UHGV virus genome: UHGV-0284229
Source: a virus
Reading direction: 5' to 3' (one strand)
DNA: 5,526 nt
The translations under genes and the position numbers were made by a program. The notes under the pieces were generated by a model that saw only the letters and a list, made by a program, of their open reading frames with translations, was not told the DNA's origin and searched no databases. This document shows positions 205 to 5,526 of this stretch, in pieces. Numbering within the stretch: the stretch's first letter is position 1; each line of letters opens with the position of its first letter.

Positions 205-1071
205 GTGTGCCTATATCCAAGTATCATTGAGAATCCAAGATACGCCAAATCAAATGAAAAAAGAAAAGCAATAAAAGACGACCGTCTAAGATGGATACAA
301 ATTCCATGCGGACATTGCGAAGAATGCAGACGCGCAAAAGCAAATGAGTGGAGAGTAAGATTAATGGAAGAAATAAAATCTAATCCAAAAAACATTATAT
401 TTGCAACGCTGACATTCTCCGAGGAAAACCTAAAAAAGTTAGAGTATGACGAAAAAGAACCTAACAAAGCAGCTCAAAGGGCAATCAGCCTATTTAGAAA
501 ACGATGGTGGAAAAAGTACGAAACACCACTCAAACACTGGCTAATCACAGAAATGGGACATGACAACACCAAGAGAATACATCTGCACGGCCTCATATGG
601 ACAGAACTAACAGAGGAGCAATTCGAAAAAGAATGGGGATACGGCTGGATATTCTTCGGGCATGAAGTAAGCGAGAAAACAATAAACTACATCATAAAAT
701 ACGTAACAAAGAGAGACGAAACCAATCCCGAGTTCAACGGAAAGATATTCACTTCAAAAGGGATCGGAAAAGACTATATAAACAAGAACTCACTTAGAAG
801 GCACAGATACCAAGATAGATTTACAGAAGAAACGTACAGAACAAACTCGGGAATAAAAATTGCACTACCAACGTATTACAAACAAAAATTATGGACAACT
901 CAGGAACGCGAAGCCCTCCGAATCATAAAGGAGGAAAAACAAGTAAAGTACTACAATAAAACTCCTATCAGAGTAGAAACAATAGAACAATACAAGGAGT
1001 ACGTAAACGCAGTAAAATATTGGCAATCAATCAAAAAATATGACGGAAAGAGAAAAAAAGGAAATATGTAA
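205..1071 (+). CDS. VP4: Rolling-circle replication initiation protein (Microviridae VP4 / phiX174 gpA-like, HUH endonuclease superfamily), 288 aa, with an apparent GTG start.
   Basis: N-terminus MCLYPSIIENPRY is typical of microvirus Rep. CGHCEEC cysteine cluster at 307..327. Motif I FATLTF at 400..417. Motif II HLH (HUH) at 580..588. Motif III YIIKYVTK with two tyrosines at 688..690 and 700..702. The first in-frame start after the TAA at 178..180 is GTG at 205; there is no in-frame ATG upstream. Confidence 0.9.
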   Translation: MCLYPSIIENPRYAKSNEKRKAIKDDRLRWIQIPCGHCEECRRAKANEWRVRLMEEIKSNPKNIIFATLTFSEENLKKLEYDEKEPNKAAQRAISLFRKRWWKKYETPLKHWLITEMGHDNTKRIHLHGLIWTELTEEQFEKEWGYGWIFFGHEVSEKTINYIIKYVTKRDETNPEFNGKIFTSKGIGKDYINKNSLRRHRYQDRFTEETYRTNSGIKIALPTYYKQKLWTTQEREALRIIKEEKQVKYYNKTPIRVETIEQYKEYVNAVKYWQSIKKYDGKRKKGNM

Positions 1072-1228
1072 AGGATATGCAGACTTAATCATAAAGAAAG
1101 AAAAACTAATTCGTGAAATATGGGAAGTAGAATTAACAATCAAGAGGATAGAAGACATCCTGATGCGAAACAAGATTTTAAAGCCTACAAAGACAGAGGA
1201 GGAATCGGAGACAGAGCCGAAAACCTAA
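1040..1228 (+). CDS. Small hypothetical protein (62 aa; charged, predicted helical) overlapping the 3' end of the Rep gene in a different frame. Possibly a VP5-like small overlapping gene.
   Basis: ATG at 1040 lies inside the last 32 nt of Rep (frame 2 versus Rep frame 1). Codon pattern is coding-like. Gokushoviruses commonly carry a small ORF overlapping the end of VP4. At this length a chance ORF in a T-poor strand is plausible. Confidence 0.3.
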   Translation: MTEREKKEICKGYADLIIKKEKLIREIWEVELTIKRIEDILMRNKILKPTKTEEESETEPKT

Positions 1229-1476
1229 GAGAACTGATCGGCCTGGAAAGAGTAGTTCGACAAGACTTCGGATACGAAGGAACATACTACGTAACAGAAG
1301 ACGGAGAAACATATGACGATGAATATGTAAGTACTCACAATCCACGAAGAATCGGCGTTCCATTCTACGAAGTGAGCAACTGGAGATACAACAGAAAAAA
1401 GGAAATATACGAACCTATCATCAGAAGAATAGTGATGATCGAAATCAAAGAAATCCAACTAACATTAGACCTATGA
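1120..1476 (+). CDS. Hypothetical acidic protein, 118 aa (YVTEDGETYDDEYV region).
   Basis: It is the only open frame covering 1229..1472 in an otherwise gap-free genome. It starts at the first ATG after an in-frame TGA (1114..1116). Its TGA stop (1474..1476) overlaps the ATG (1473..1475) of the next ORF in an ATGA arrangement typical of translational coupling. Purine-rich codon usage matches VP1 and VP4. Confidence 0.5.
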   Translation: MGSRINNQEDRRHPDAKQDFKAYKDRGGIGDRAENLRELIGLERVVRQDFGYEGTYYVTEDGETYDDEYVSTHNPRRIGVPFYEVSNWRYNRKKEIYEPIIRRIVMIEIKEIQLTLDL

Positions 1477-1643
1477 ATGAAAAAGTAAAGAAAATCGTAA
1501 AATGGATCGCGGTAATAGCAGCTGCGATCGGCGCAGCGGCTGCTGTAATCATGGAACAGGGATGCACTCACAAACACTACCTCAAAGCAAACGGCATCAA
1601 AATCGACACAATCCAAGTAGAAACAACAACAAAAATTAAATAA
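1473..1643 (+). CDS. Small predicted single-pass membrane protein, 56 aa: MNEKVKKIVKWIAVIAAAIGAAAAVIMEQGCTHKHYLKANGIKIDTIQVETTTKIK. Candidate lysis or membrane-targeting protein. Not present in the supplied ORF track.
   Basis: Hand translation of frame 3 from ATG 1473 to TAA 1641..1643. The start overlaps the upstream stop (ATGA). Its stop is followed 1 nt later by the ATG of the next gene (1645). A basic N-terminus (KVKK) precedes a hydrophobic stretch of about 20 residues (IVKWIAVIAAAIGAAAAVIM), encoded by a locally GC-rich, T-containing patch (1503..1553) that stands out against the A-rich background. Confidence 0.5.
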   Translation: MNEKVKKIVKWIAVIAAAIGAAAAVIMEQGCTHKHYLKANGIKIDTIQVETTTKIK

Positions 1644-1644
1644 C

Positions 1645-1950
1645 ATGGAAAAGAAATTCAGAGATCAGCTGCTTACTGAAAGCAGAAAAAAAGAAGAAGA
1701 AATCGAAAATGTAAACCTCGAAATCGAAGAAAGAGAAGCATCGGAAAACGGCCCGTTCGTACTGATCCGCAACAAAAAAAACAAATGGGTAATCACAACA
1801 TGCGGTGCACTCGTAAACGGGAAAGAGTTCGACACTAAAGAGGATGCTGAAGAACATCTGGCTCAAAAAAAGTGGGAAGACATCCTAACAGCAACGCTCA
1901 TATTCTTCACACACGTAAAAAACCAAATGGAAAACACTCAAAAAGAATAA
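1645..1950 (+). CDS. Hypothetical protein, 101 aa. Acidic N-terminal coiled-coil-like segment (KKEEEIENVNLEIEEREASE), then a small globular region (FVLIRNKKNKWVITTCGALVNGKEFDTKEDAEEHL).
   Basis: ATG at 1645 is 1 nt after the preceding stop. The stop TAA at 1948..1950 is 3 nt before the VP1 ATG. Coding-like codon usage; fills the gap between flanking genes exactly. Confidence 0.6.
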   Translation: MEKKFRDQLLTESRKKEEEIENVNLEIEEREASENGPFVLIRNKKNKWVITTCGALVNGKEFDTKEDAEEHLAQKKWEDILTATLIFFTHVKNQMENTQKE

Positions 1951-1953
1951 GCC

Positions 1954-3999
1954 ATGAAAAAAACATTAGGAGGAGACAGAATCCGAAGCGAAAGCAAAAT
2001 GGAAGTATATCTGCCTAATTTCGGCAGATCATCTCACAACGTGGGAAAAATAATCCGAACAACACAGGCATGCGGCACGATCGTTCCCTATTGGTGCCAA
2101 ATAGGTTTGGATGGAACAACGTTCTACATCGACATCACAACGAAGGTAAAAACCCTGCCAACAACCGGGCCTGTATTCGGAAGCTTCAAACATCAAATCG
2201 ATGTGTTTGTAATTCCGATCAGGCTCTACATAGCAGCACTGCACAACAACGCTTTAGGAGTAGGGTTGAACATGAGCAAGGTATTGCTGCCGCAATTCAG
2301 GGTCAGCACCGCTATCGCATCAATCTATGAAAACGATACCAACAGAGGGCAAGTCAATCCGAGTTCGCTGCTCTCATACTTAGGAATAAAAGGATTCGGA
2401 TACTCCAGTACTAACACCTACATTCGAACCTTTCCTGCAATATTCAATCTGGCATACTGGGACATATTCAAAAACTATTACGCCAACAAGCAAGAAGAAA
2501 ACGCATACGTAATCACCGGAGTAAACCATATTTGGAAGAAAATCAGTGCAGGAGATGGAGTTGCTTGGAATAGAGTGTGGACAGAAAATACAAGTGAAGC
2601 ATACCCACTCAATCCGACAAGTGAAGCACCGAGTTTTATCAAACTGGAATTCGAGGAAAGAGTATCACCCGAGGAAGTCAATGAAATACAATTCTTAACA
2701 AATGATCCGGAAAAACCTACACAAGCAATCAACAAACTAACAAAACTCGGAGACGCCTTTATATTCGAGCGAACAGACCCGGAGGCAATGGGACTAAGGA
2801 AACCAGAAAACCCGAGAAAGGCGACCGACATTTACGTGTATCAAGTCAAGAAGCCAATCAAAATTGCATACAATCTAAACATAGCAGGGAGTAACAACTT
2901 GACAATGCCGGACAACAAAAAAATCAAATTAACACCATTTCCATTAAAAAACATCGACGAAGAACGAAATAAAATCTTAGCTGCACCCAGTACCTCTGCA
3001 TATGTAGTAGACGGCGCTACAATGCCATACGGAGCCGCAATGAAAACTATAGGACTACCAAGCCATGACCGCAAAAGCAAATATAACAGTTCAAACGCAT
3101 GGTACTCACAAGCAGGGTTGGCGGTAAAAACATACCTTAGCGACAGATTCAACAACTGGCTAAACACCGAATGGATCGACGGAACAACAGGTGGAATTAA
3201 TTCAATCACAGCTGTAGATGTGAGCGACGGCAAACTTACGATGGATGCTCTGATCCTCCAAAAGAAAATATTCAACATGCTTAACCGCGTAGCCATTACA
3301 GACGGCACCTACCAAGCATGGAGAGAAGCGACATATGGAATCAGGAGTGCAACACTGCCCGAATCACCTATATTCTGCGGCGGAATGCAGAGCGAAATTG
3401 CATTTGATGAAATCGTATCAAACTCAGCAACAGAAGAAGAACCGCTGGGAACACTTGCCGGACGAGGAGTTGCAACCATGTACAAATCCGGAAAGGGTTT
3501 GAAAATCAAATGTACAGAACCCAGCATGATTATGGCCTTAGGATCGATCACACCTCGAGTTGATTATAGCCAAGGCAACAAATGGTGGACAAGACTACAG
3601 AATATGGATGACTTCCACAAGCCAACATTAGACGCAATCGGGTTCCAAGAACTGATCGCAGAAGAAGCAGCAGCGTGGACTACAGAAGCCATCGAGAACC
3701 ATGATCTCAAATATCAATCATTAGGAAAACAGCCATCATGGATCGAATACACAACAGACGTAAACGAAACATACGGCGAATTTGCCGCAGGAATGCCATT
3801 AGCATTTATGTGCTTGAACAGAGTGTACGAAGAAAACTTGGATCACACAATCGGCAATGCATCAACCTACATCGATCCTACGATATACAACAACATATTC
3901 GCAGAATCAAGACTAAGTTCACAAAACTTCTGGGTACAAGTAGCATTCGACGTAACAGCGCGCCGAGTAATGTCAGCAAAACAAATTCCAAATTTATAA
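1954..3999 (+). CDS. VP1: Major capsid protein (Microviridae VP1 / phiX174 gpF-like), 681 aa.
   Basis: Length and position match VP1. The N-terminal region RSSHNVGKIIRTTQACGTIVPYWCQIGLDGTTFYID matches the conserved gokushovirus VP1 N-terminal pattern (S-H...G-x-[IL]-[VI]-P...[IL]-x-x-G-[DT]-T-F). It is the longest ORF in a phage-sized window, flanked by tightly packed genes. An alternative start at ATG 1999 (MEVYLPNF...) is possible. Confidence 0.92.
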   Translation: MKKTLGGDRIRSESKMEVYLPNFGRSSHNVGKIIRTTQACGTIVPYWCQIGLDGTTFYIDITTKVKTLPTTGPVFGSFKHQIDVFVIPIRLYIAALHNNALGVGLNMSKVLLPQFRVSTAIASIYENDTNRGQVNPSSLLSYLGIKGFGYSSTNTYIRTFPAIFNLAYWDIFKNYYANKQEENAYVITGVNHIWKKISAGDGVAWNRVWTENTSEAYPLNPTSEAPSFIKLEFEERVSPEEVNEIQFLTNDPEKPTQAINKLTKLGDAFIFERTDPEAMGLRKPENPRKATDIYVYQVKKPIKIAYNLNIAGSNNLTMPDNKKIKLTPFPLKNIDEERNKILAAPSTSAYVVDGATMPYGAAMKTIGLPSHDRKSKYNSSNAWYSQAGLAVKTYLSDRFNNWLNTEWIDGTTGGINSITAVDVSDGKLTMDALILQKKIFNMLNRVAITDGTYQAWREATYGIRSATLPESPIFCGGMQSEIAFDEIVSNSATEEEPLGTLAGRGVATMYKSGKGLKIKCTEPSMIMALGSITPRVDYSQGNKWWTRLQNMDDFHKPTLDAIGFQELIAEEAAAWTTEAIENHDLKYQSLGKQPSWIEYTTDVNETYGEFAAGMPLAFMCLNRVYEENLDHTIGNASTYIDPTIYNNIFAESRLSSQNFWVQVAFDVTARRVMSAKQIPNL

Positions 4000-4003
4000 C
4001 ACC

Positions 4004-4327
4004 ATGAAAACAGCAATAAACAGAAAAGGATGCATCAACAATCCAGACCTCACATACCAAGCAGAACCAAGAGAGGTAAAACTAAGGAAAATAATTAGCG
4101 GAGAATCCAGCAGCATGGAAGACGGAGTATTCCCAACAATCTACACAGAAAAAAAAGACGGTGTGCTACCAGAATACGATATCCGTACAGACCGCTTTGA
4201 AGTGGCGATAGACGCAATCGACAAAATCAACAAAAGCGCAGCAGGCCAAATAGCAAAAAGCAAAGGTGAAACCGAAGTCGTAAAAGATTTCGGGACAGAA
4301 ACAAAAACCGATCCCGAAAGAAGCTAA
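4004..4327 (+). CDS. Hypothetical protein, 107 aa, encoded between VP1 and VP2. Unknown function; candidate accessory, scaffold-like or minor structural protein.
   Basis: ATG at 4004 is 4 nt after the VP1 stop (3997..3999). Coding-like purine-rich codon usage. Ends at TAA 4325..4327, about 30 nt upstream of a strong hairpin. No other frame covers this interval. Confidence 0.55.
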   Translation: MKTAINRKGCINNPDLTYQAEPREVKLRKIISGESSSMEDGVFPTIYTEKKDGVLPEYDIRTDRFEVAIDAIDKINKSAAGQIAKSKGETEVVKDFGTETKTDPERS

Positions 4328-4389: not shown

Positions 4390-4530
4390 AACCCTCGCAA
4401 ATGCGTGTGGCACAGCGCGGTAGACGTTTATACATATATAACAAGAACTATAGGTATAAATTCTTTTTAAAAAAGAACGAAAATGAACTTCAAAAAACTA
4501 TTAGAATTACTCGAAAAAGGAGAGGACCTC

Positions 4531-5526
4531 ATGAGTCCTATCTCGGGAATCGTAGGCGATGTATCAGGAATCCTCAACACGCTGGGCATAGGCAGAAGGA
4601 GGCAGATAAGACAGCAGAAAGAGATGGCGGAAAACGCAGCCAAGATAAATTACAAATACGGAGAAATGGCGGCGGAGAATGCATTCGAAAGACAGCAGGT
4701 GTTATACAACAGGACCTATCAAGACCAAAGCTACGCCAACCAAGTCGCGCAAATGGATGCAGCGGGATTATCTCCCGGTCTGATGTACGGCAAAGGAGGT
4801 GCCGGAGGCGGAGGAGCCGGCTCGACAACAGGTGCTCCAATGGGTGCAACAGGAGCTACAGGAGCAGGATCGGCAGCCGATCCGAATATGCAACTGCAGG
4901 CATTGATGTCACTGCGACAGGTGCGGATGAGCGAACGAAAGAACGAGGCAGAAATCAACCTGCTCAATACTCAGGCAAAAGCACTCGAAGCAGAGGCAGG
5001 TAAAAACAGAGAAGAAACCACGACAATAATCGAGAAAAGAATATGGCAAGTAAAGCAAGAGATGTTCGAAGGGTGGAAGGGTTTCATCAATACGGCAAAC
5101 CAACTATGGGACCAAATGGTAAAATGGCAACCTACACAGAAAACGACGATCGACGGCAAAGAAATCGAGATACCCAAATACTTCGAAATAGAGGACGATA
5201 AATTCGGAAAGATCGTATTCGGAGAAGAATCATTCCAGGGCGATATGATGAAAGCCGAAAAACAAATCCTCGAAGGAACAGCGGCAATCAAAACTCTGGA
5301 GAGCATATATGCAGACGAGAAACTATCGGCAGAAATCAACAAAATAAACGCGGACGCATGCAGCGCAATGGCTCAAGCAGCATATTTCTACGCAGCAGGC
5401 AGAAACCAAGAAGCAGAAGCAAAAGTAGCCGAAGCAAAAAGGAGGACCGAAGAAGCAACCGCAGATCTGCGAGAACTCCAATACTGGACCGAAATCGCAA
5501 ACACGATCCTCAGACTCGCGCAAGTA
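4531..5526 (+). CDS. VP2: Minor capsid / DNA pilot protein (Microviridae VP2 / phiX174 gpH-like). 3' end truncated by the window edge, with at least 332 aa visible.
   Basis: Frame 1 is open from the TAA at 4468..4470 to the window end. The frame is missing from the ORF track because no stop falls inside the window. MSPISGIVGDVSGILNTLGIG...AGLSPGLMYGKGGAGGGGAGSTTGAPMGATGATGAGS matches the conserved VP2 N-terminus: small hydrophobic/Gly-rich leader, then NxxYxxxxAxxNxxF...Q, AGL(N/S)P and a glycine-rich tract. GGAGAGG sits 5 nt upstream of ATG 4531. The longest in-frame ATG is at 4483 (MNFKKLLELLEKGEDL-), so the start is ambiguous between 4483 and 4531. Confidence 0.85.
   Translation, partial: MSPISGIVGDVSGILNTLGIGRRRQIRQQKEMAENAAKINYKYGEMAAENAFERQQVLYNRTYQDQSYANQVAQMDAAGLSPGLMYGKGGAGGGGAGSTTGAPMGATGATGAGSAADPNMQLQALMSLRQVRMSERKNEAEINLLNTQAKALEAEAGKNREETTTIIEKRIWQVKQEMFEGWKGFINTANQLWDQMVKWQPTQKTTIDGKEIEIPKYFEIEDDKFGKIVFGEESFQGDMMKAEKQILEGTAAIKTLESIYADEKLSAEINKINADACSAMAQAAYFYAAGRNQEAEAKVAEAKRRTEEATADLRELQYWTEIANTILRLAQV

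What the first reader, a model, noticed from the sequence alone, without database searches (positions are those of the whole stretch)
1473..1643. Unannotated 56-aa transmembrane mini-protein: candidate single-gene lysis protein
The ORF falls below the 60-aa cutoff of the supplied track but has hallmarks of a real gene. Its ATG is embedded in ATGA with the upstream stop, its own stop is 1 nt from the next start, and it is the only frame filling 1477..1643. It encodes a basic N-terminus followed by a hydrophobic helix of about 20 residues (Ala/Ile/Val/Gly-rich) and a polar, lysine-rich C-terminus. The hydrophobic segment needs T- and C-containing codons that are otherwise depleted on this strand, which argues for selection rather than chance. 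Gokushovirus-like phages have no well-established lysis gene. An N-in single-pass small membrane protein is the architecture of phiX174 E and other single-gene lysis (Sgl) or pinholin-like proteins. It could alternatively be a membrane-anchored superinfection-exclusion or morphogenesis factor.
Basis: partly seen in the sequence, partly recalled or inferred. Interest (0 to 1): 0.65.

Follow-up and report, generated by a model that had tools for sequence, protein, structure and literature searches.

The report
Small envelope lipoprotein-like gene of gut microvirus
The 56-codon ORF is a real, strongly conserved gene of a gut microvirus; it belongs to a previously undescribed family of tiny exported lipoprotein-type proteins, which makes it the best (untested) candidate for how these phages break out of their Bacteroidales hosts.

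Summary
ORF 1473-1643 (+) exists with the stated ATGA start overlap and a 1-nt gap to the next gene. It contains the only hydrophobic helix encoded on the coding strand of this complete 5,526-nt circular microvirus genome. It is a real gene: intact in all 35 close relatives, dN/dS 0.09 (shifted frames 1.9 and 2.3), with variation confined to its third codon positions.

The interpretation needs revising. ORF56 belongs to a large, unannotated family of 50-100-aa proteins, about 570 90%-identity clusters over two searches. They lie at the same place upstream of the capsid gene in microviruses related to Bacteroidales proviruses. Almost all members have a signal peptide ending in a canonical lipobox (F/L-T-S-Cys) and a 25-50-aa Ser/Thr-rich mature peptide. 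The Cys is the only invariant column.

ORF56's own clade is aberrant. Its box is E-Q-G-C, with Glu at -3 under selection, and constraint sits on the helix rather than the tail. Cleavage in this clade is therefore uncertain.

No endolysin, holin or spanin partner is present. The most likely role (about 45%) is a single-gene lysis effector that works like colicin lysis lipoproteins rather than phiX174 E. A superinfection-exclusion lipoprotein is the main rival (about 25%). Function is untested.

The parts
1473..1643 (+). ORF56 coding sequence, 56 codons plus TAA
   Evidence: Present and 171 nt long in 37 unique related DNA sequences, with pooled dN/dS 0.09. Variation among 32 relatives sits at this frame's third codon positions: entropy 0.03/0.01/0.74 by phase over 1500-1559.
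1473..1476 (+). ATGA overlap of the ORF56 start with the stop of the upstream ORF118 (translational-coupling-type junction)
   Evidence: ATGAAT is conserved at this junction in 36 of 37 relatives, and the remaining one has ATGAAC.
1473..1502 (+). Basic n-region MNEKVKKIVK (net charge +3), predicted cytoplasmic
   Evidence: K4, K6, K7 and K10 are invariant in 44 DNA variants.
1503..1553 (+). Hydrophobic h-region or transmembrane helix WIAVIAAAIGAAAAVIM (codons 11-27), with a small-xxx-small Ala/Gly face
   Evidence: Kyte-Doolittle 2.33, the only such segment on the coding strand. AlphaFold2 predicts a helix over residues 3-28 with pLDDT 80, 84 and 67 for residue blocks 1-10, 11-20 and 21-30. 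Codons 1-31 give dN/dS 0.026, and the Ala codons vary freely among GCN. W11 is nearly invariant across the whole family.
1554..1565 (+). Lipobox-like motif E28-Q29-G30-C31. Cys31 aligns with the lipid-modified Cys of the family. Glu at -3 is non-canonical.
   Evidence: All four residues are invariant in 44 DNA variants with mixed synonymous codons: GAG 23/GAA 21, CAG 36/CAA 8, GGA/GGG/GGT, TGC 40/TGT 4. Cys is the only invariant column of the joint family alignment. Relatives carry F/L/T-T/S-S/G-C.
1566..1640 (+). 25-residue polar tail THKHYLKANGIKIDTIQVETTTKIK after Cys31 (the mature lipopeptide would be 26 residues including Cys31). Predicted periplasmic and possibly a beta-hairpin. Carries the family motif G-[IV]-[KH]-I-D-[TS]-[IV]-x-V.
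   Evidence: hhalign of mature parts against a canonical-lipobox subgroup gives P 1.9e-5, ungapped and Cys to Cys. Compare P0253 'NGVHIDTVRVD'. AlphaFold2 predicts strands 34-39 and 49-54 at low confidence. dN/dS is 0.19. No acidic residues follow the Cys, so there is no Bacteroidota surface-export signal as described in PMC12889592.
1641..1647 (+). TAA stop, 1-nt spacer, and ATG of the downstream ORF101 (tight operon-like packing)
   Evidence: The same layout is conserved in relatives.

Best explanation
ORF56 is a real gene for a 56-aa envelope-targeted mini-protein. It belongs to a previously undescribed family of very small microvirus (pro)lipoproteins.

Shown:
- The gene is under purifying selection as strong as the replication initiator.
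- It has homologues at the same genomic position (rep - small ORFs - this gene - ORF101-like - capsid) in many microviruses. Some of these are integrated in Bacteroidales genomes.
- In those homologues the hydrophobic segment ends in a canonical lipobox.
- The genome contains no other membrane protein, endolysin, holin or spanin partner.

Inferred mechanism:
- The basic N-terminus and hydrophobic helix insert through Sec with the N-terminus in the cytoplasm.
- In the family, Cys is diacylglyceryl-modified and the leader is removed by signal peptidase II. This leaves a 25-50-aa lipid-anchored, Ser/Thr/Lys-rich peptide facing the periplasm.
- In the ORF56 clade the box is E-Q-G-C and selection is concentrated on the helix. 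Processing is therefore probably slow or absent, and the helix itself is functional.

I propose this protein is the phage's single-gene lysis effector. As it accumulates late in infection it compromises the envelope from the periplasmic face of the inner membrane. It works like the colicin lysis / bacteriocin-release lipoproteins, which are small lipoproteins whose mature form and stable signal peptide permeabilise and kill the producing cell. It does not work like phiX174 E. It could alternatively block a membrane step of wall synthesis through its helix.

Probabilities:
- Real gene: about 0.98.
- Member of the lipoprotein family: about 0.85.
- Actually lipidated and cleaved in this clade: about 0.5.
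- Lysis function: about 0.45.
For: Gene reality:
- 188 protein clusters at 77-95% identity, and 103 of the 120 listed are exactly 56 aa.
- dN/dS is 0.09, against 1.85 and 2.30 in the shifted frames.
- dN/dS is comparable to VP4 (0.10) and lower than the capsid (0.146).
- The third-position variability phase switches exactly at the ORF's borders.

Family and lipobox:
- Syntenic small ORFs with TTS|C, LTS|C, FTS|C, VQS|C, GVS|C and IGG|C occur in distant relatives.
- A profile search found 381 further proteins, all on contigs of at most about 8.5 kb. Of the 120 listed, 118 carry a canonical box.
- An exhaustive HMMER search of 1.84 billion representatives gave 56 hits. These included about 30 distinct subfamilies outside the ORF56 clade, all with the same layout.
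- hhalign of ORF56 against a canonical subgroup gave P 1.9e-5 on mature parts alone.
- Cys is the only invariant column of the joint alignment.

Host:
- Related proviruses lie in long contigs of Dysgonomonas, Paludibacteraceae and Phocaeicola. The Paludibacteraceae provirus carries a family member directly upstream of its capsid gene.

Lysis inference:
- ORF56 holds the only hydrophobic segment on the coding strand.
- None of the other ORFs scanned against Pfam and PHROGs matches an endolysin or holin family.
- Relatives that lack the lipoprotein sometimes carry Amidase_2 or Peptidase_M15_3 in the same rep-to-capsid interval, often with a small TM ORF. None carries both.
- The only cultured Bacteroides microvirus has an M15 peptidase (PMC13064476).
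- The gene is strictly retained within the clade and patchy between clades. This is the pattern reported for single-gene lysis genes of ssRNA phages (PMC7693330).
- The clade is seen only as free contigs of about 5.5 kb, never within contigs over 10 kb.

Analogy:
- Colicin lysis proteins are 47-aa lipoprotein precursors that are lethal when overexpressed and have toxic signal peptides (PMC2896534, PMC9517006).
- ORF56's leader is its most conserved part.
Against: - No experiment bears on function.
- ORF56's own box has Glu at -3. This violates every lipobox definition consulted: [LVI][ASTVI][GAS]C in PMC6139136, and 'largely uncharged' in PMC12889592.
- The absence of co-occurrence between the lipoprotein and endolysins is not statistically significant: 17 lipoprotein-only, 8 endolysin-only, 0 both and 55 neither among 80 capsid clusters, P about 0.15.
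- Of the 38 related genomes with neither gene, 21 encode no hydrophobic segment at all. Lysis in this group therefore does not generally need such a protein, and 'the only candidate' is a weak argument.
- The rep-to-capsid interval is where all accessory ORFs sit, so a shared location says little.
- There is no sequence similarity to Lysis_col or any known lysis family.
- Whether Bacteroidales have an OmpLA-like target is unknown.
Confidence: 0.45

Rival explanations
1. Superinfection-exclusion or receptor-masking lipoprotein. The exported (lipo)peptide binds the phage's outer-membrane receptor or entry machinery from the periplasmic side. This blocks secondary infection and stops progeny being lost on cell debris and vesicles, as T5 Llp and phi80/N15 Cor do.
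For: - It has the same general architecture as known exclusion lipoproteins: a small exported lipoprotein made by a lytic phage (own knowledge of Llp/Cor).
- Its distribution across capsid lineages is patchy, present in 17 of 80 clusters, as expected of an accessory host-interaction gene.
- Signal and mature modules are shuffled between subgroups, as in P0166.
- A family member sits in an integrated provirus.
- Many relatives manage without it.
Against: - Constraint is very strong (dN/dS 0.09, equal to the replication protein), and no loss is seen in 35 of 35 genomes of the clade. That is unusual for a dispensable arms-race gene.
- A 5.5-kb genome has little room for non-essential genes.
- The mature peptide is only 26 residues, against 61 for Llp (own knowledge).
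- The motif G-[IV]-H-I-D-[TS]-V is shared between phages whose capsids are under 50% identical, and so presumably use different receptors.
- In this clade the conserved part is the helix, not the exposed tail.
Confidence: 0.25
2. Uncleaved bitopic 'protein antibiotic'. In this clade the former lipoprotein has become an N-in single-pass membrane protein. Its Ala/Gly-rich helix binds and inhibits an essential membrane enzyme of wall-precursor synthesis or flipping (MraY/MurJ-like). This would be the E/LysM mode of lysis. It is a mechanistic variant of the lysis explanation rather than a different function.
For: - Glu at -3 is under selection (GAG 23/GAA 21) and is incompatible with lipobox definitions (PMC6139136; PMC12889592).
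- The helix region shows 91% mean pairwise identity against 70% for the tail. Canonical subgroups show the reverse: 51-72% against 76-91%.
- dN/dS is 0.026 for codons 1-31.
- The helix has a small-xxx-small face: A13, A16/A17, G20/A21, A24.
- Known Sgls such as LysM act through a TM helix (PMC12506998).
Against: - Gln-Gly-Cys at -2, -1 and +1 remain invariant. That fits a box that is still used.
- Non-consensus boxes can be functional in phage lipoproteins, for example AWAC (PMC6139136).
- Homologues are clearly lipoproteins.
- No target is known.
Confidence: 0.15
3. Accessory envelope factor that needs an unidentified partner. Examples are an o-spanin-like or outer-membrane-disrupting component, or a modulator of vesicle release. 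In this reading the primary lysis function lies elsewhere, for example in a moonlighting structural protein as in Qbeta A2.
For: - Some lineages pair the lipoprotein with a second small TM ORF: L112/L116 have a tail-anchored 52-aa ORF, and L060/L069 have a 45-aa ORF.
- Many relatives have no membrane protein at all, so a non-membrane lysis mechanism probably exists in this group.
Against: - The window genome encodes no second hydrophobic segment in any + frame and no endolysin.
- ORF56 has no C-terminal TMD, so it is not a u-spanin.
- There is no sequence match to spanin families; the closest was 13.9 bits against a 100-bit cutoff, and that was for a relative.
Confidence: 0.1
4. Not a gene: a chance ORF in an A-rich strand.
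For: - Many ORFs of 30-60 codons occur by chance in this genome.
- Lipoprotein-like patterns are common on the T-rich reverse strand, found in 18 of 66 loci.
Against: - dN/dS is 0.09, with pS 0.33.
- Third-position periodicity follows this frame.
- The length is a fixed 56 codons in more than 100 variants.
- The hydrophobicity is unmatched in 599 of 600 random sequences.
- Family members occur across about 570 90%-identity clusters.
Confidence: 0.01

Closest known systems
Colicin lysis proteins / bacteriocin release proteins (Pfam Lysis_col; ColE7 Cel, pCloDF13 BRP)
   Same: - Very small prolipoproteins: 47 aa with a 19-aa leader, against 56 aa with a 30-aa leader here.
- The mature peptide is short (about 28 against 26 residues), polar and Ser/Thr-rich.
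- They are encoded by a small selfish replicon as its only release function.
- They are lethal or lytic when they accumulate, and the signal peptide is itself toxic and stable (PMC2896534 and references cited there; PMC9517006). This parallels the unusually conserved leader of ORF56.
   Different: - No detectable sequence similarity; no Pfam hit at E<=0.01.
- The host phylum is different (Bacteroidota, not Enterobacteriaceae).
- The leaders are longer, with a conserved Trp-containing n-region.
- ORF56's box has Glu at -3.
- Dependence on an outer-membrane phospholipase is unknown.
- The function is untested.
phiX174 protein E and other single-gene lysis proteins (LysM, MS2 L)
   Same: - A small membrane-targeted protein.
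- It is the only candidate lysis factor of a minimal ssDNA/ssRNA phage genome that lacks a muralytic enzyme.
- The pattern of strict conservation within a clade and non-homology between clades matches that reported for Sgls (PMC7693330).
   Different: - E is overprinted inside gene D. ORF56 is a free-standing ORF with no overlapping frame under selection.
- There is no sequence similarity.
- Family members carry a cleavable lipoprotein leader, so the active part would be periplasmic. E instead has a cytoplasmic domain plus a TMD bound to MraY, and E's N-out/C-in topology is from my own knowledge.
Phage exclusion lipoproteins T5 Llp and phi80/N15 Cor
   Same: A small exported lipoprotein made by a virulent or temperate phage and acting on the host envelope from the periplasmic side.
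   Different: - The mature part is much shorter.
- There is no sequence similarity.
- ORF56 is conserved like a core gene.
- Its motif is shared between phages with very different capsids.
Spanins (lambda Rz1 o-spanin, T1 gp11 u-spanin)
   Same: - Phage lysis proteins with an outer-membrane-lipoprotein signal.
- Unusual lipoboxes occur and can function (PMC6139136).
   Different: - There is no i-spanin partner and no C-terminal TMD.
- There is no holin or endolysin to act after.
- There is no family match.
Entericidin B and similar small bacteriolytic lipoprotein toxins
   Same: A prolipoprotein of 45-50 aa with a lytic mature peptide.
   Different: The only match is a sub-threshold hit confined to the signal peptide of a relative (E 0.015, 15 bits against a 94-bit cutoff). 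The mature part is predicted to be beta-rich rather than an amphipathic helix, at low confidence.

Membership tests
Bacterial/phage lipoproteins (signal peptidase II substrates) | Positively charged n-region followed by an uncharged hydrophobic h-region | tested here: met
   The n-region MNEKVKKIVK has net charge +3. The h-region W11-M27 is 17 uncharged residues with Kyte-Doolittle 2.33. A helix is predicted over residues 3-28.
Bacterial/phage lipoproteins (signal peptidase II substrates) | Lipobox [LVI][ASTVI][GAS]C, with the three residues before Cys uncharged | tested here: not met
   ORF56 has E-Q-G-C. Positions -1 (G) and -2 (Q) are acceptable; Q at -2 also occurs in relatives as VQSC and AQSC. 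Position -3 is Glu, invariant and under selection. The definitions used are from PMC6139136 and PMC12889592. Homologues do meet the feature: 118 of 120.
Bacterial/phage lipoproteins (signal peptidase II substrates) | Cys 15-35 residues from the N-terminus and invariant among homologues | tested here: met
   The Cys is at position 31. It is the only invariant column in the 51-sequence joint alignment. Codons are TGC 40 and TGT 4.
Bacterial/phage lipoproteins (signal peptidase II substrates) | Diacylglyceryl modification and cleavage before Cys | not testable with these tools
   This needs labelling, globomycin treatment or mass spectrometry. SignalP and LipoP were not available.
Colicin lysis proteins (Pfam PF02402 Lysis_col) | Sequence membership in the family | tested here: not met
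   No Pfam match at E<=0.01 for ORF56, or at E<=0.1 for two relatives.
Colicin lysis proteins (Pfam PF02402 Lysis_col) | Prolipoprotein of about 45-52 aa with a mature part of about 28 aa | tested here: inconclusive
   The sizes are similar: 56 aa with 26 aa after the Cys. The family median is a 37-aa leader and a 34-aa mature part. Processing of ORF56 itself is uncertain.
Colicin lysis proteins (Pfam PF02402 Lysis_col) | Causes quasi-lysis through outer-membrane phospholipase A, with a stable toxic signal peptide | not testable with these tools
   The only indirect hint is that the leader is more conserved than the tail.
phiX174 E-type lysis protein | Gene overprinted within another gene, with sequence similarity to E | tested here: not met
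   It is a free-standing ORF. The other frames have stops and dN/dS above 1. There is no Pfam or PHROG match.
phiX174 E-type lysis protein | Inhibits MraY and requires SlyD | not testable with these tools
   This needs genetics or biochemistry.
Two-component or unimolecular spanins | o-spanin lipoprotein paired with an i-spanin that has an N-terminal TMD, or a lipoprotein signal plus a C-terminal TMD in one protein. Both act after a holin and an endolysin. | tested here: not met
   There is no second hydrophobic segment in any + frame. ORF56 has no C-terminal TMD. There is no endolysin or holin match. A relative's spanin2 hit scored 13.9 bits against a 100-bit cutoff.
Holins / pinholins | Small TMD protein encoded with an endolysin whose release or activation it controls | tested here: not met
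   The window has no endolysin. Relatives that have Amidase_2 or M15 carry other small TM ORFs and lack this family.
Exclusion lipoproteins (T5 Llp, Cor) | Sequence or structure relationship, and blocking of the phage receptor | tested here: inconclusive
   There is no match in Pfam, PHROGs, NCBIfam, PADLOC or PDB sequences. I did not check whether those libraries contain Llp or Cor models. Receptor blocking cannot be tested here.

The most novel reading that the evidence does not exclude
A whole family of lipoprotein-type single-gene lysis proteins exists in Bacteroidales-infecting microviruses. These would be 25-50-residue lipid-anchored peptides, in some clades acting through the retained leader helix, that kill the host from the periplasmic face of the membrane. 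That would be a new class of phage 'protein antibiotic', aimed at a conserved envelope target in a dominant gut phylum and evolutionarily unrelated to phiX174 E.
Probability: 0.4. Interest if true: 0.8.

Novelty: new variant of a known kind. Interest (0 to 1): 0.6.

Why it matters
- How microviruses other than the phiX174 group lyse their hosts is an open question. phiX174 is the only microvirus whose lysis mechanism has been worked out, and M15 peptidases are found in only a minority of genomes (PMC3394797, PMC9239249).
- This family gives a concrete, widespread and cheaply testable candidate in one of the most abundant phage groups of the human gut. One variant (P0007) is indexed in 139 blocks of the public assembly collection and stands for 437 member sequences.
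- If it is lytic, its target would be a new weak point in the Bacteroidota envelope. The peptides are small enough to synthesise.
- If it is instead an exclusion factor, it would be the first one described for a microvirus.
- Either way the family is absent from Pfam, PHROGs and NCBIfam, and the members traced in public records are unnamed or labelled hypothetical. It deserves a name and a model.

Tried and rejected
- Family libraries. Pfam, PHROGs, NCBIfam, PADLOC and PDB-sequence searches of ORF56 and relatives gave nothing significant. The only hits were sub-threshold signal-peptide matches to entericidin B, spanin2 and 'smalltalk'.
- GenBank phages. tblastn of ORF56 against the INPHARED collection gave no match.
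- More endolysin-bearing microviruses. Two viral-contig scans seeded with M15 peptidases returned only other phage or viral contigs, none with a microvirus capsid. This was a dead end.
- Exclusivity test. I added 77 capsid-seeded loci. Across 80 capsid clusters the counts were 17 lipoprotein-only, 8 endolysin-only, 0 both and 55 neither, P about 0.15. This is suggestive only.
- Pattern-only detection of lipoproteins. It fires on the T-rich reverse strand (18 of 66 loci) almost as often as on the coding strand (23 of 66), though never in shuffles. I therefore relied on homology and synteny.
- Promoter motif. The Bacteroides -7 motif TAnnTTTG is not enriched: 8 sites against 5.3 expected, and none near ORF56.
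- AlphaFold2. It gave only a confident helix and a low-confidence hairpin (mean pLDDT 64.7), so I ran no fold search.
- Genomic context of distant family members. P0253 and P0284 sit only on 1-2-kb contigs.
- Rejected alternatives. The 45-aa ORF at 1502-1639 and the reverse-strand ORFs at 1365-1646 and 1445-1567 are rejected, because they have stops in relatives and dN/dS above 1. Read-through of ORF118 is rejected because of the conserved ATGA junction and the phase switch at about 1470.
- Unavailable source. The colicin review PMC1847374 was not available, so statements on slow processing of colicin lysis proteins rest on references cited in PMC2896534 and on my own knowledge.
Full report
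**Context**

The window is a complete circular microvirus genome of 5,526 nt, with all genes on the A-rich + strand. The genes are:
- replication initiator VP4, 205-1071 (PHROG 942, Pfam REP_ORF2-G2P)
- ORF62, 1040-1228
- ORF118, 1120-1476
- ORF56, 1473-1643
- ORF101, 1645-1950
- major capsid protein, 1954-3999 (PHROG 514, Pfam Phage_F)
- ORF107, 4004-4327
- a 402-aa pilot-protein-like ORF that wraps the window ends, 4483-5526 plus 1-165

The nearest GenBank records are faecal microviruses at only 64-71% nucleotide identity over parts of the genome.

**The observation**

The ORF, its ATGA start/stop overlap and the 1-nt spacing to the next start are exactly as described, and both junctions are conserved in relatives. 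The protein has:
- a basic n-region (net +3)
- a 17-residue uncharged Ala/Ile/Val/Gly stretch
- the sequence E-Q-G-C
- a polar 25-residue tail

The hydrophobic stretch is the only one in any + strand frame of the genome. Random sequences of the same composition matched it in 0 of 300 and 1 of 300 runs.

A second + frame is open here in this genome (1502-1639), but it is broken in most relatives. The compositional signature of the helix is GC-rich Ala codons and A depletion rather than T/C enrichment.

**Is it a gene?**

Yes.
- A protein search found 188 clusters at 77-95% identity, nearly all exactly 56 aa, on contigs of about 5.5 kb.
- All genomes of the close clade (capsid at least 79% identical) carry it. 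One copy is split by the contig ends.
- Pooled Nei-Gojobori dN/dS over 37 unique DNA sequences is 0.09 with pS 0.33. The shifted frames give 1.85 and 2.30.
- This is as constrained as VP4 (0.10) and more constrained than the capsid (0.146).
- Column variability among 32 relatives jumps to this frame's third position at about 1470 and leaves it at about 1645. Entropy by phase is 0.03/0.01/0.74 over 1500-1559.
- Gene callers on public metagenomes already predict it, and one GenBank entry labels it 'hypothetical protein'.

**What it is**

Relatives with 35-57% capsid identity carry small ORFs at the same place, 260-700 nt upstream of the capsid gene and usually with one ORF101-like gene between. 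Their hydrophobic segment ends in a canonical lipoprotein box. Examples are TTS|C, LTS|C, FTS|C, VQS|C, GVS|C, LLA|C and IGG|C.

A profile of those sequences retrieved 381 more proteins. All lie on contigs of at most about 8.5 kb, and none carries any name beyond 'hypothetical protein'. Of the 120 listed, 118 have such a box.

ORF56 is homologous to this family.
- hhalign of the mature parts alone against the FTS|C subgroup gives P 1.9e-5. The alignment is ungapped and runs Cys to Cys.
- An exhaustive HMMER search of 1.84 billion cluster representatives with a joint profile returned 56 proteins at E<=1e-3.
- Intermediates such as P0253 (...TFCS|CAVSSKVQKNGVHIDTVRVDY) match ORF56's CTHKHYLKANGIKIDTIQVE.
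- In the joint alignment the Cys is the only invariant column, and a Trp in the n-region is nearly invariant.

Family-wide features are:
- unusually long leaders (median 37 aa) with a conserved motif M-E-x-x-K-x-L-x-W-L-K-x-x-P-x-W-A-K
- a mature part with a median of 34 residues, rich in Thr/Ser/Val
- no acidic residues after the Cys

The last point means the family lacks the Bacteroidota surface-export signal described in PMC12889592.

AlphaFold2 predicts a helix over residues 3-28 and two short strands at low confidence. Nothing in Pfam, PHROGs, NCBIfam, PADLOC or the PDB matches.

**Host**

Capsid relatives are integrated in long contigs of Dysgonomonas (two species), a Paludibacteraceae MAG and a Phocaeicola MAG. 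The Paludibacteraceae provirus has a family member (LGLTS|C...) directly upstream of its capsid gene. The hosts are therefore diderm Bacteroidales, which have the Lgt/Lsp lipoprotein pathway (PMC12889592). The window's own clade has only been seen as free contigs of about 5.5 kb.

**A peculiarity of this clade**

ORF56's box is E-Q-G-C. Glu at -3 violates the consensus [LVI][ASTVI][GAS]C (PMC6139136) and the 'largely uncharged' criterion (PMC12889592). Yet E28, Q29, G30 and C31 are invariant in 44 DNA variants with freely mixed synonymous codons, for example GAG 23/GAA 21.

The distribution of constraint is also reversed.
- In the ORF56 clade the leader part shows 91% mean pairwise identity and the tail 70%. 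dN/dS is 0.026 against 0.19.
- In three canonical-lipobox subgroups the leader is the less conserved part, at 51-72% against 76-91%.
- The helix has a small-xxx-small Ala/Gly face.

I read this as a functional shift. The leader helix is itself functional in this clade, and cleavage may be slow or lost. Unusual boxes can nevertheless work in phage lipoproteins, as AWAC does (PMC6139136). I put lipidation and cleavage at about 50%.

**Function**

An exported mini-protein in a genome of about 8 genes must act on the envelope. The genome has no endolysin, holin or second membrane protein. This rules out holin, o-spanin and u-spanin roles as defined in PMC6139136.

Some relatives lack the family and instead carry Amidase_2 or Peptidase_M15_3 in the same rep-to-capsid interval, often followed by a small TM ORF. 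The only cultured Bacteroides microvirus has an M15 peptidase (PMC13064476). No genome has both the lipoprotein and an endolysin. Among 80 capsid clusters, however, the counts of 17, 8, 0 and 55 are not significant (P about 0.15).

The gene is kept strictly within a clade, and unrelated solutions occur between clades. This is the pattern reported for single-gene lysis genes of ssRNA phages (PMC7693330).

The closest functional analogue is the colicin lysis / bacteriocin-release protein. These are 47-aa prolipoproteins, lethal on overexpression, whose mature form activates outer-membrane phospholipase A and whose signal peptide is itself toxic (PMC2896534, PMC9517006). I therefore favour a single-gene lysis effector of that kind, at about 45%. 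A mechanistic variant is that the retained helix inhibits a membrane step of wall synthesis.

Several points count against this.
- There is no experimental evidence.
- Of 38 relatives without the lipoprotein or an endolysin, 21 encode no hydrophobic segment at all. Lysis in this group does not generally need such a protein.
- The shared genomic location is weak evidence, because all accessory ORFs sit in that interval.

The main rival is a T5-Llp/Cor-like exclusion lipoprotein, at about 25%. It fits the patchy distribution and the module shuffling seen in P0166. It fits poorly with core-gene-like constraint, with the tiny mature peptide, and with a motif shared between phages whose capsids differ greatly.

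**Novelty**

Searches of the held literature for microviruses combined with lipoproteins, lysis or Sgl found no description of this family. Key papers on microvirus diversity mention only M15 peptidases as lysis-associated accessory genes. I classify the finding as a new variant of a known kind: small phage- or plasmid-encoded lytic or envelope lipoproteins. It comes with a testable hypothesis for the long-open question of lysis in non-phiX174 microviruses.

Noticed in passing
window 1040-1228 and 1120-1476: ORF62 (coiled-coil-like, conserved in L111, L001 and L002) overlaps the end of VP4 and the first 36 codons of ORF118. Third-position variability among 32 relatives follows ORF62's frame over about 1050-1200 and ORF118's frame only from about 1200. 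ORF118's N-terminus is therefore overprinted or weakly constrained, or its true start is unclear, since there is no in-frame ATG after 1120. Gene callers call ORF118 and not ORF62.
   Followed up: partly
window 1270-1476; L001 1511-1711; L002 5033-5239; L117 3240-3440: The C-terminal part of ORF118 carries a motif Y-Y-V-T-E-D-G-E-T-Y that recurs in 66-68-aa ORFs of distant relatives (F-Y-D-E-D-G, Y-V-D-Q-D-G, F-V-D-V-D-T-G-E). This is a conserved small protein of unknown function, with no Pfam or PHROG match.
   Followed up: no
window 1645-1950; L113 3202-3504; L115 5290-5595; L117 3367-3705: ORF101 (motif ..NGPF.., then ..F.T.E.A..Y...K.W..I) lies immediately upstream of the capsid gene, or of an intervening endolysin, in almost every relative, including integrated proviruses. 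It looks like a core gene and has no database match.
   Followed up: no
L113 3511-3936 and 7408-7551; L115 5573-5989; L117 2759-3115 and 3097-3243; L082 468-899; L087 4606-4932 and 4963-5067: Related microviruses and proviruses carry Amidase_2 or Peptidase_M15_3 endolysin genes in the rep-to-capsid interval, several with an adjacent or separate small TM ORF (holin-like). None of these genomes has the small lipoprotein.
   Followed up: partly
L112 7323-7481; L116 10662-10820; L060 5143-5280; L069 2228-2365: Some lipoprotein-bearing lineages also encode a second small membrane protein: a tail-anchored 52-aa ORF after VP4, or a 45-aa ORF with an N-terminal TM. This hints at two-component systems in those lineages. 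The window genome has no such partner.
   Followed up: no
L111 (NZ_JACWEU010000076.1, whole 5,673-nt scaffold): A genome with a 91%-identical capsid and an intact ORF56 homologue is deposited as a stand-alone scaffold of an Acinetobacter lwoffii assembly. It is not integrated and is probably a contaminant, so it is not host evidence.
   Followed up: no
protein P0166: This is a hybrid family member. It has the leader of the 'MEYIKQ...FTS|C SAS' subgroup joined to the mature part of the '...GDT..IKYEQVG' subgroup, which suggests that leader and mature modules recombine.
   Followed up: no
family alignment: The leaders of the family are unusually long (median 37 aa) and share a conserved n-region motif with two Trp residues (M-E-x-x-K-x-L-x-W-L-K-x-x-P-x-W-A-K). 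This is unexpected for a disposable signal peptide. ORF56 retains only the second Trp (W11).
   Followed up: partly
window 4401-5003 and 4650-4950: A 200-aa Arg-rich ORF overlaps the pilot-protein gene in another frame. It is probably spurious. The underlying region is the most GC-rich of the genome (0.55) and encodes a Gly/Ala-rich stretch of the pilot protein.
   Followed up: no
L002 (PQ006946.1) whole genome: This relative, with capsid about 55% identical, has no lipoprotein, no endolysin and no hydrophobic segment in any coding-strand frame. Its lysis mechanism is entirely unknown.
   Followed up: partly
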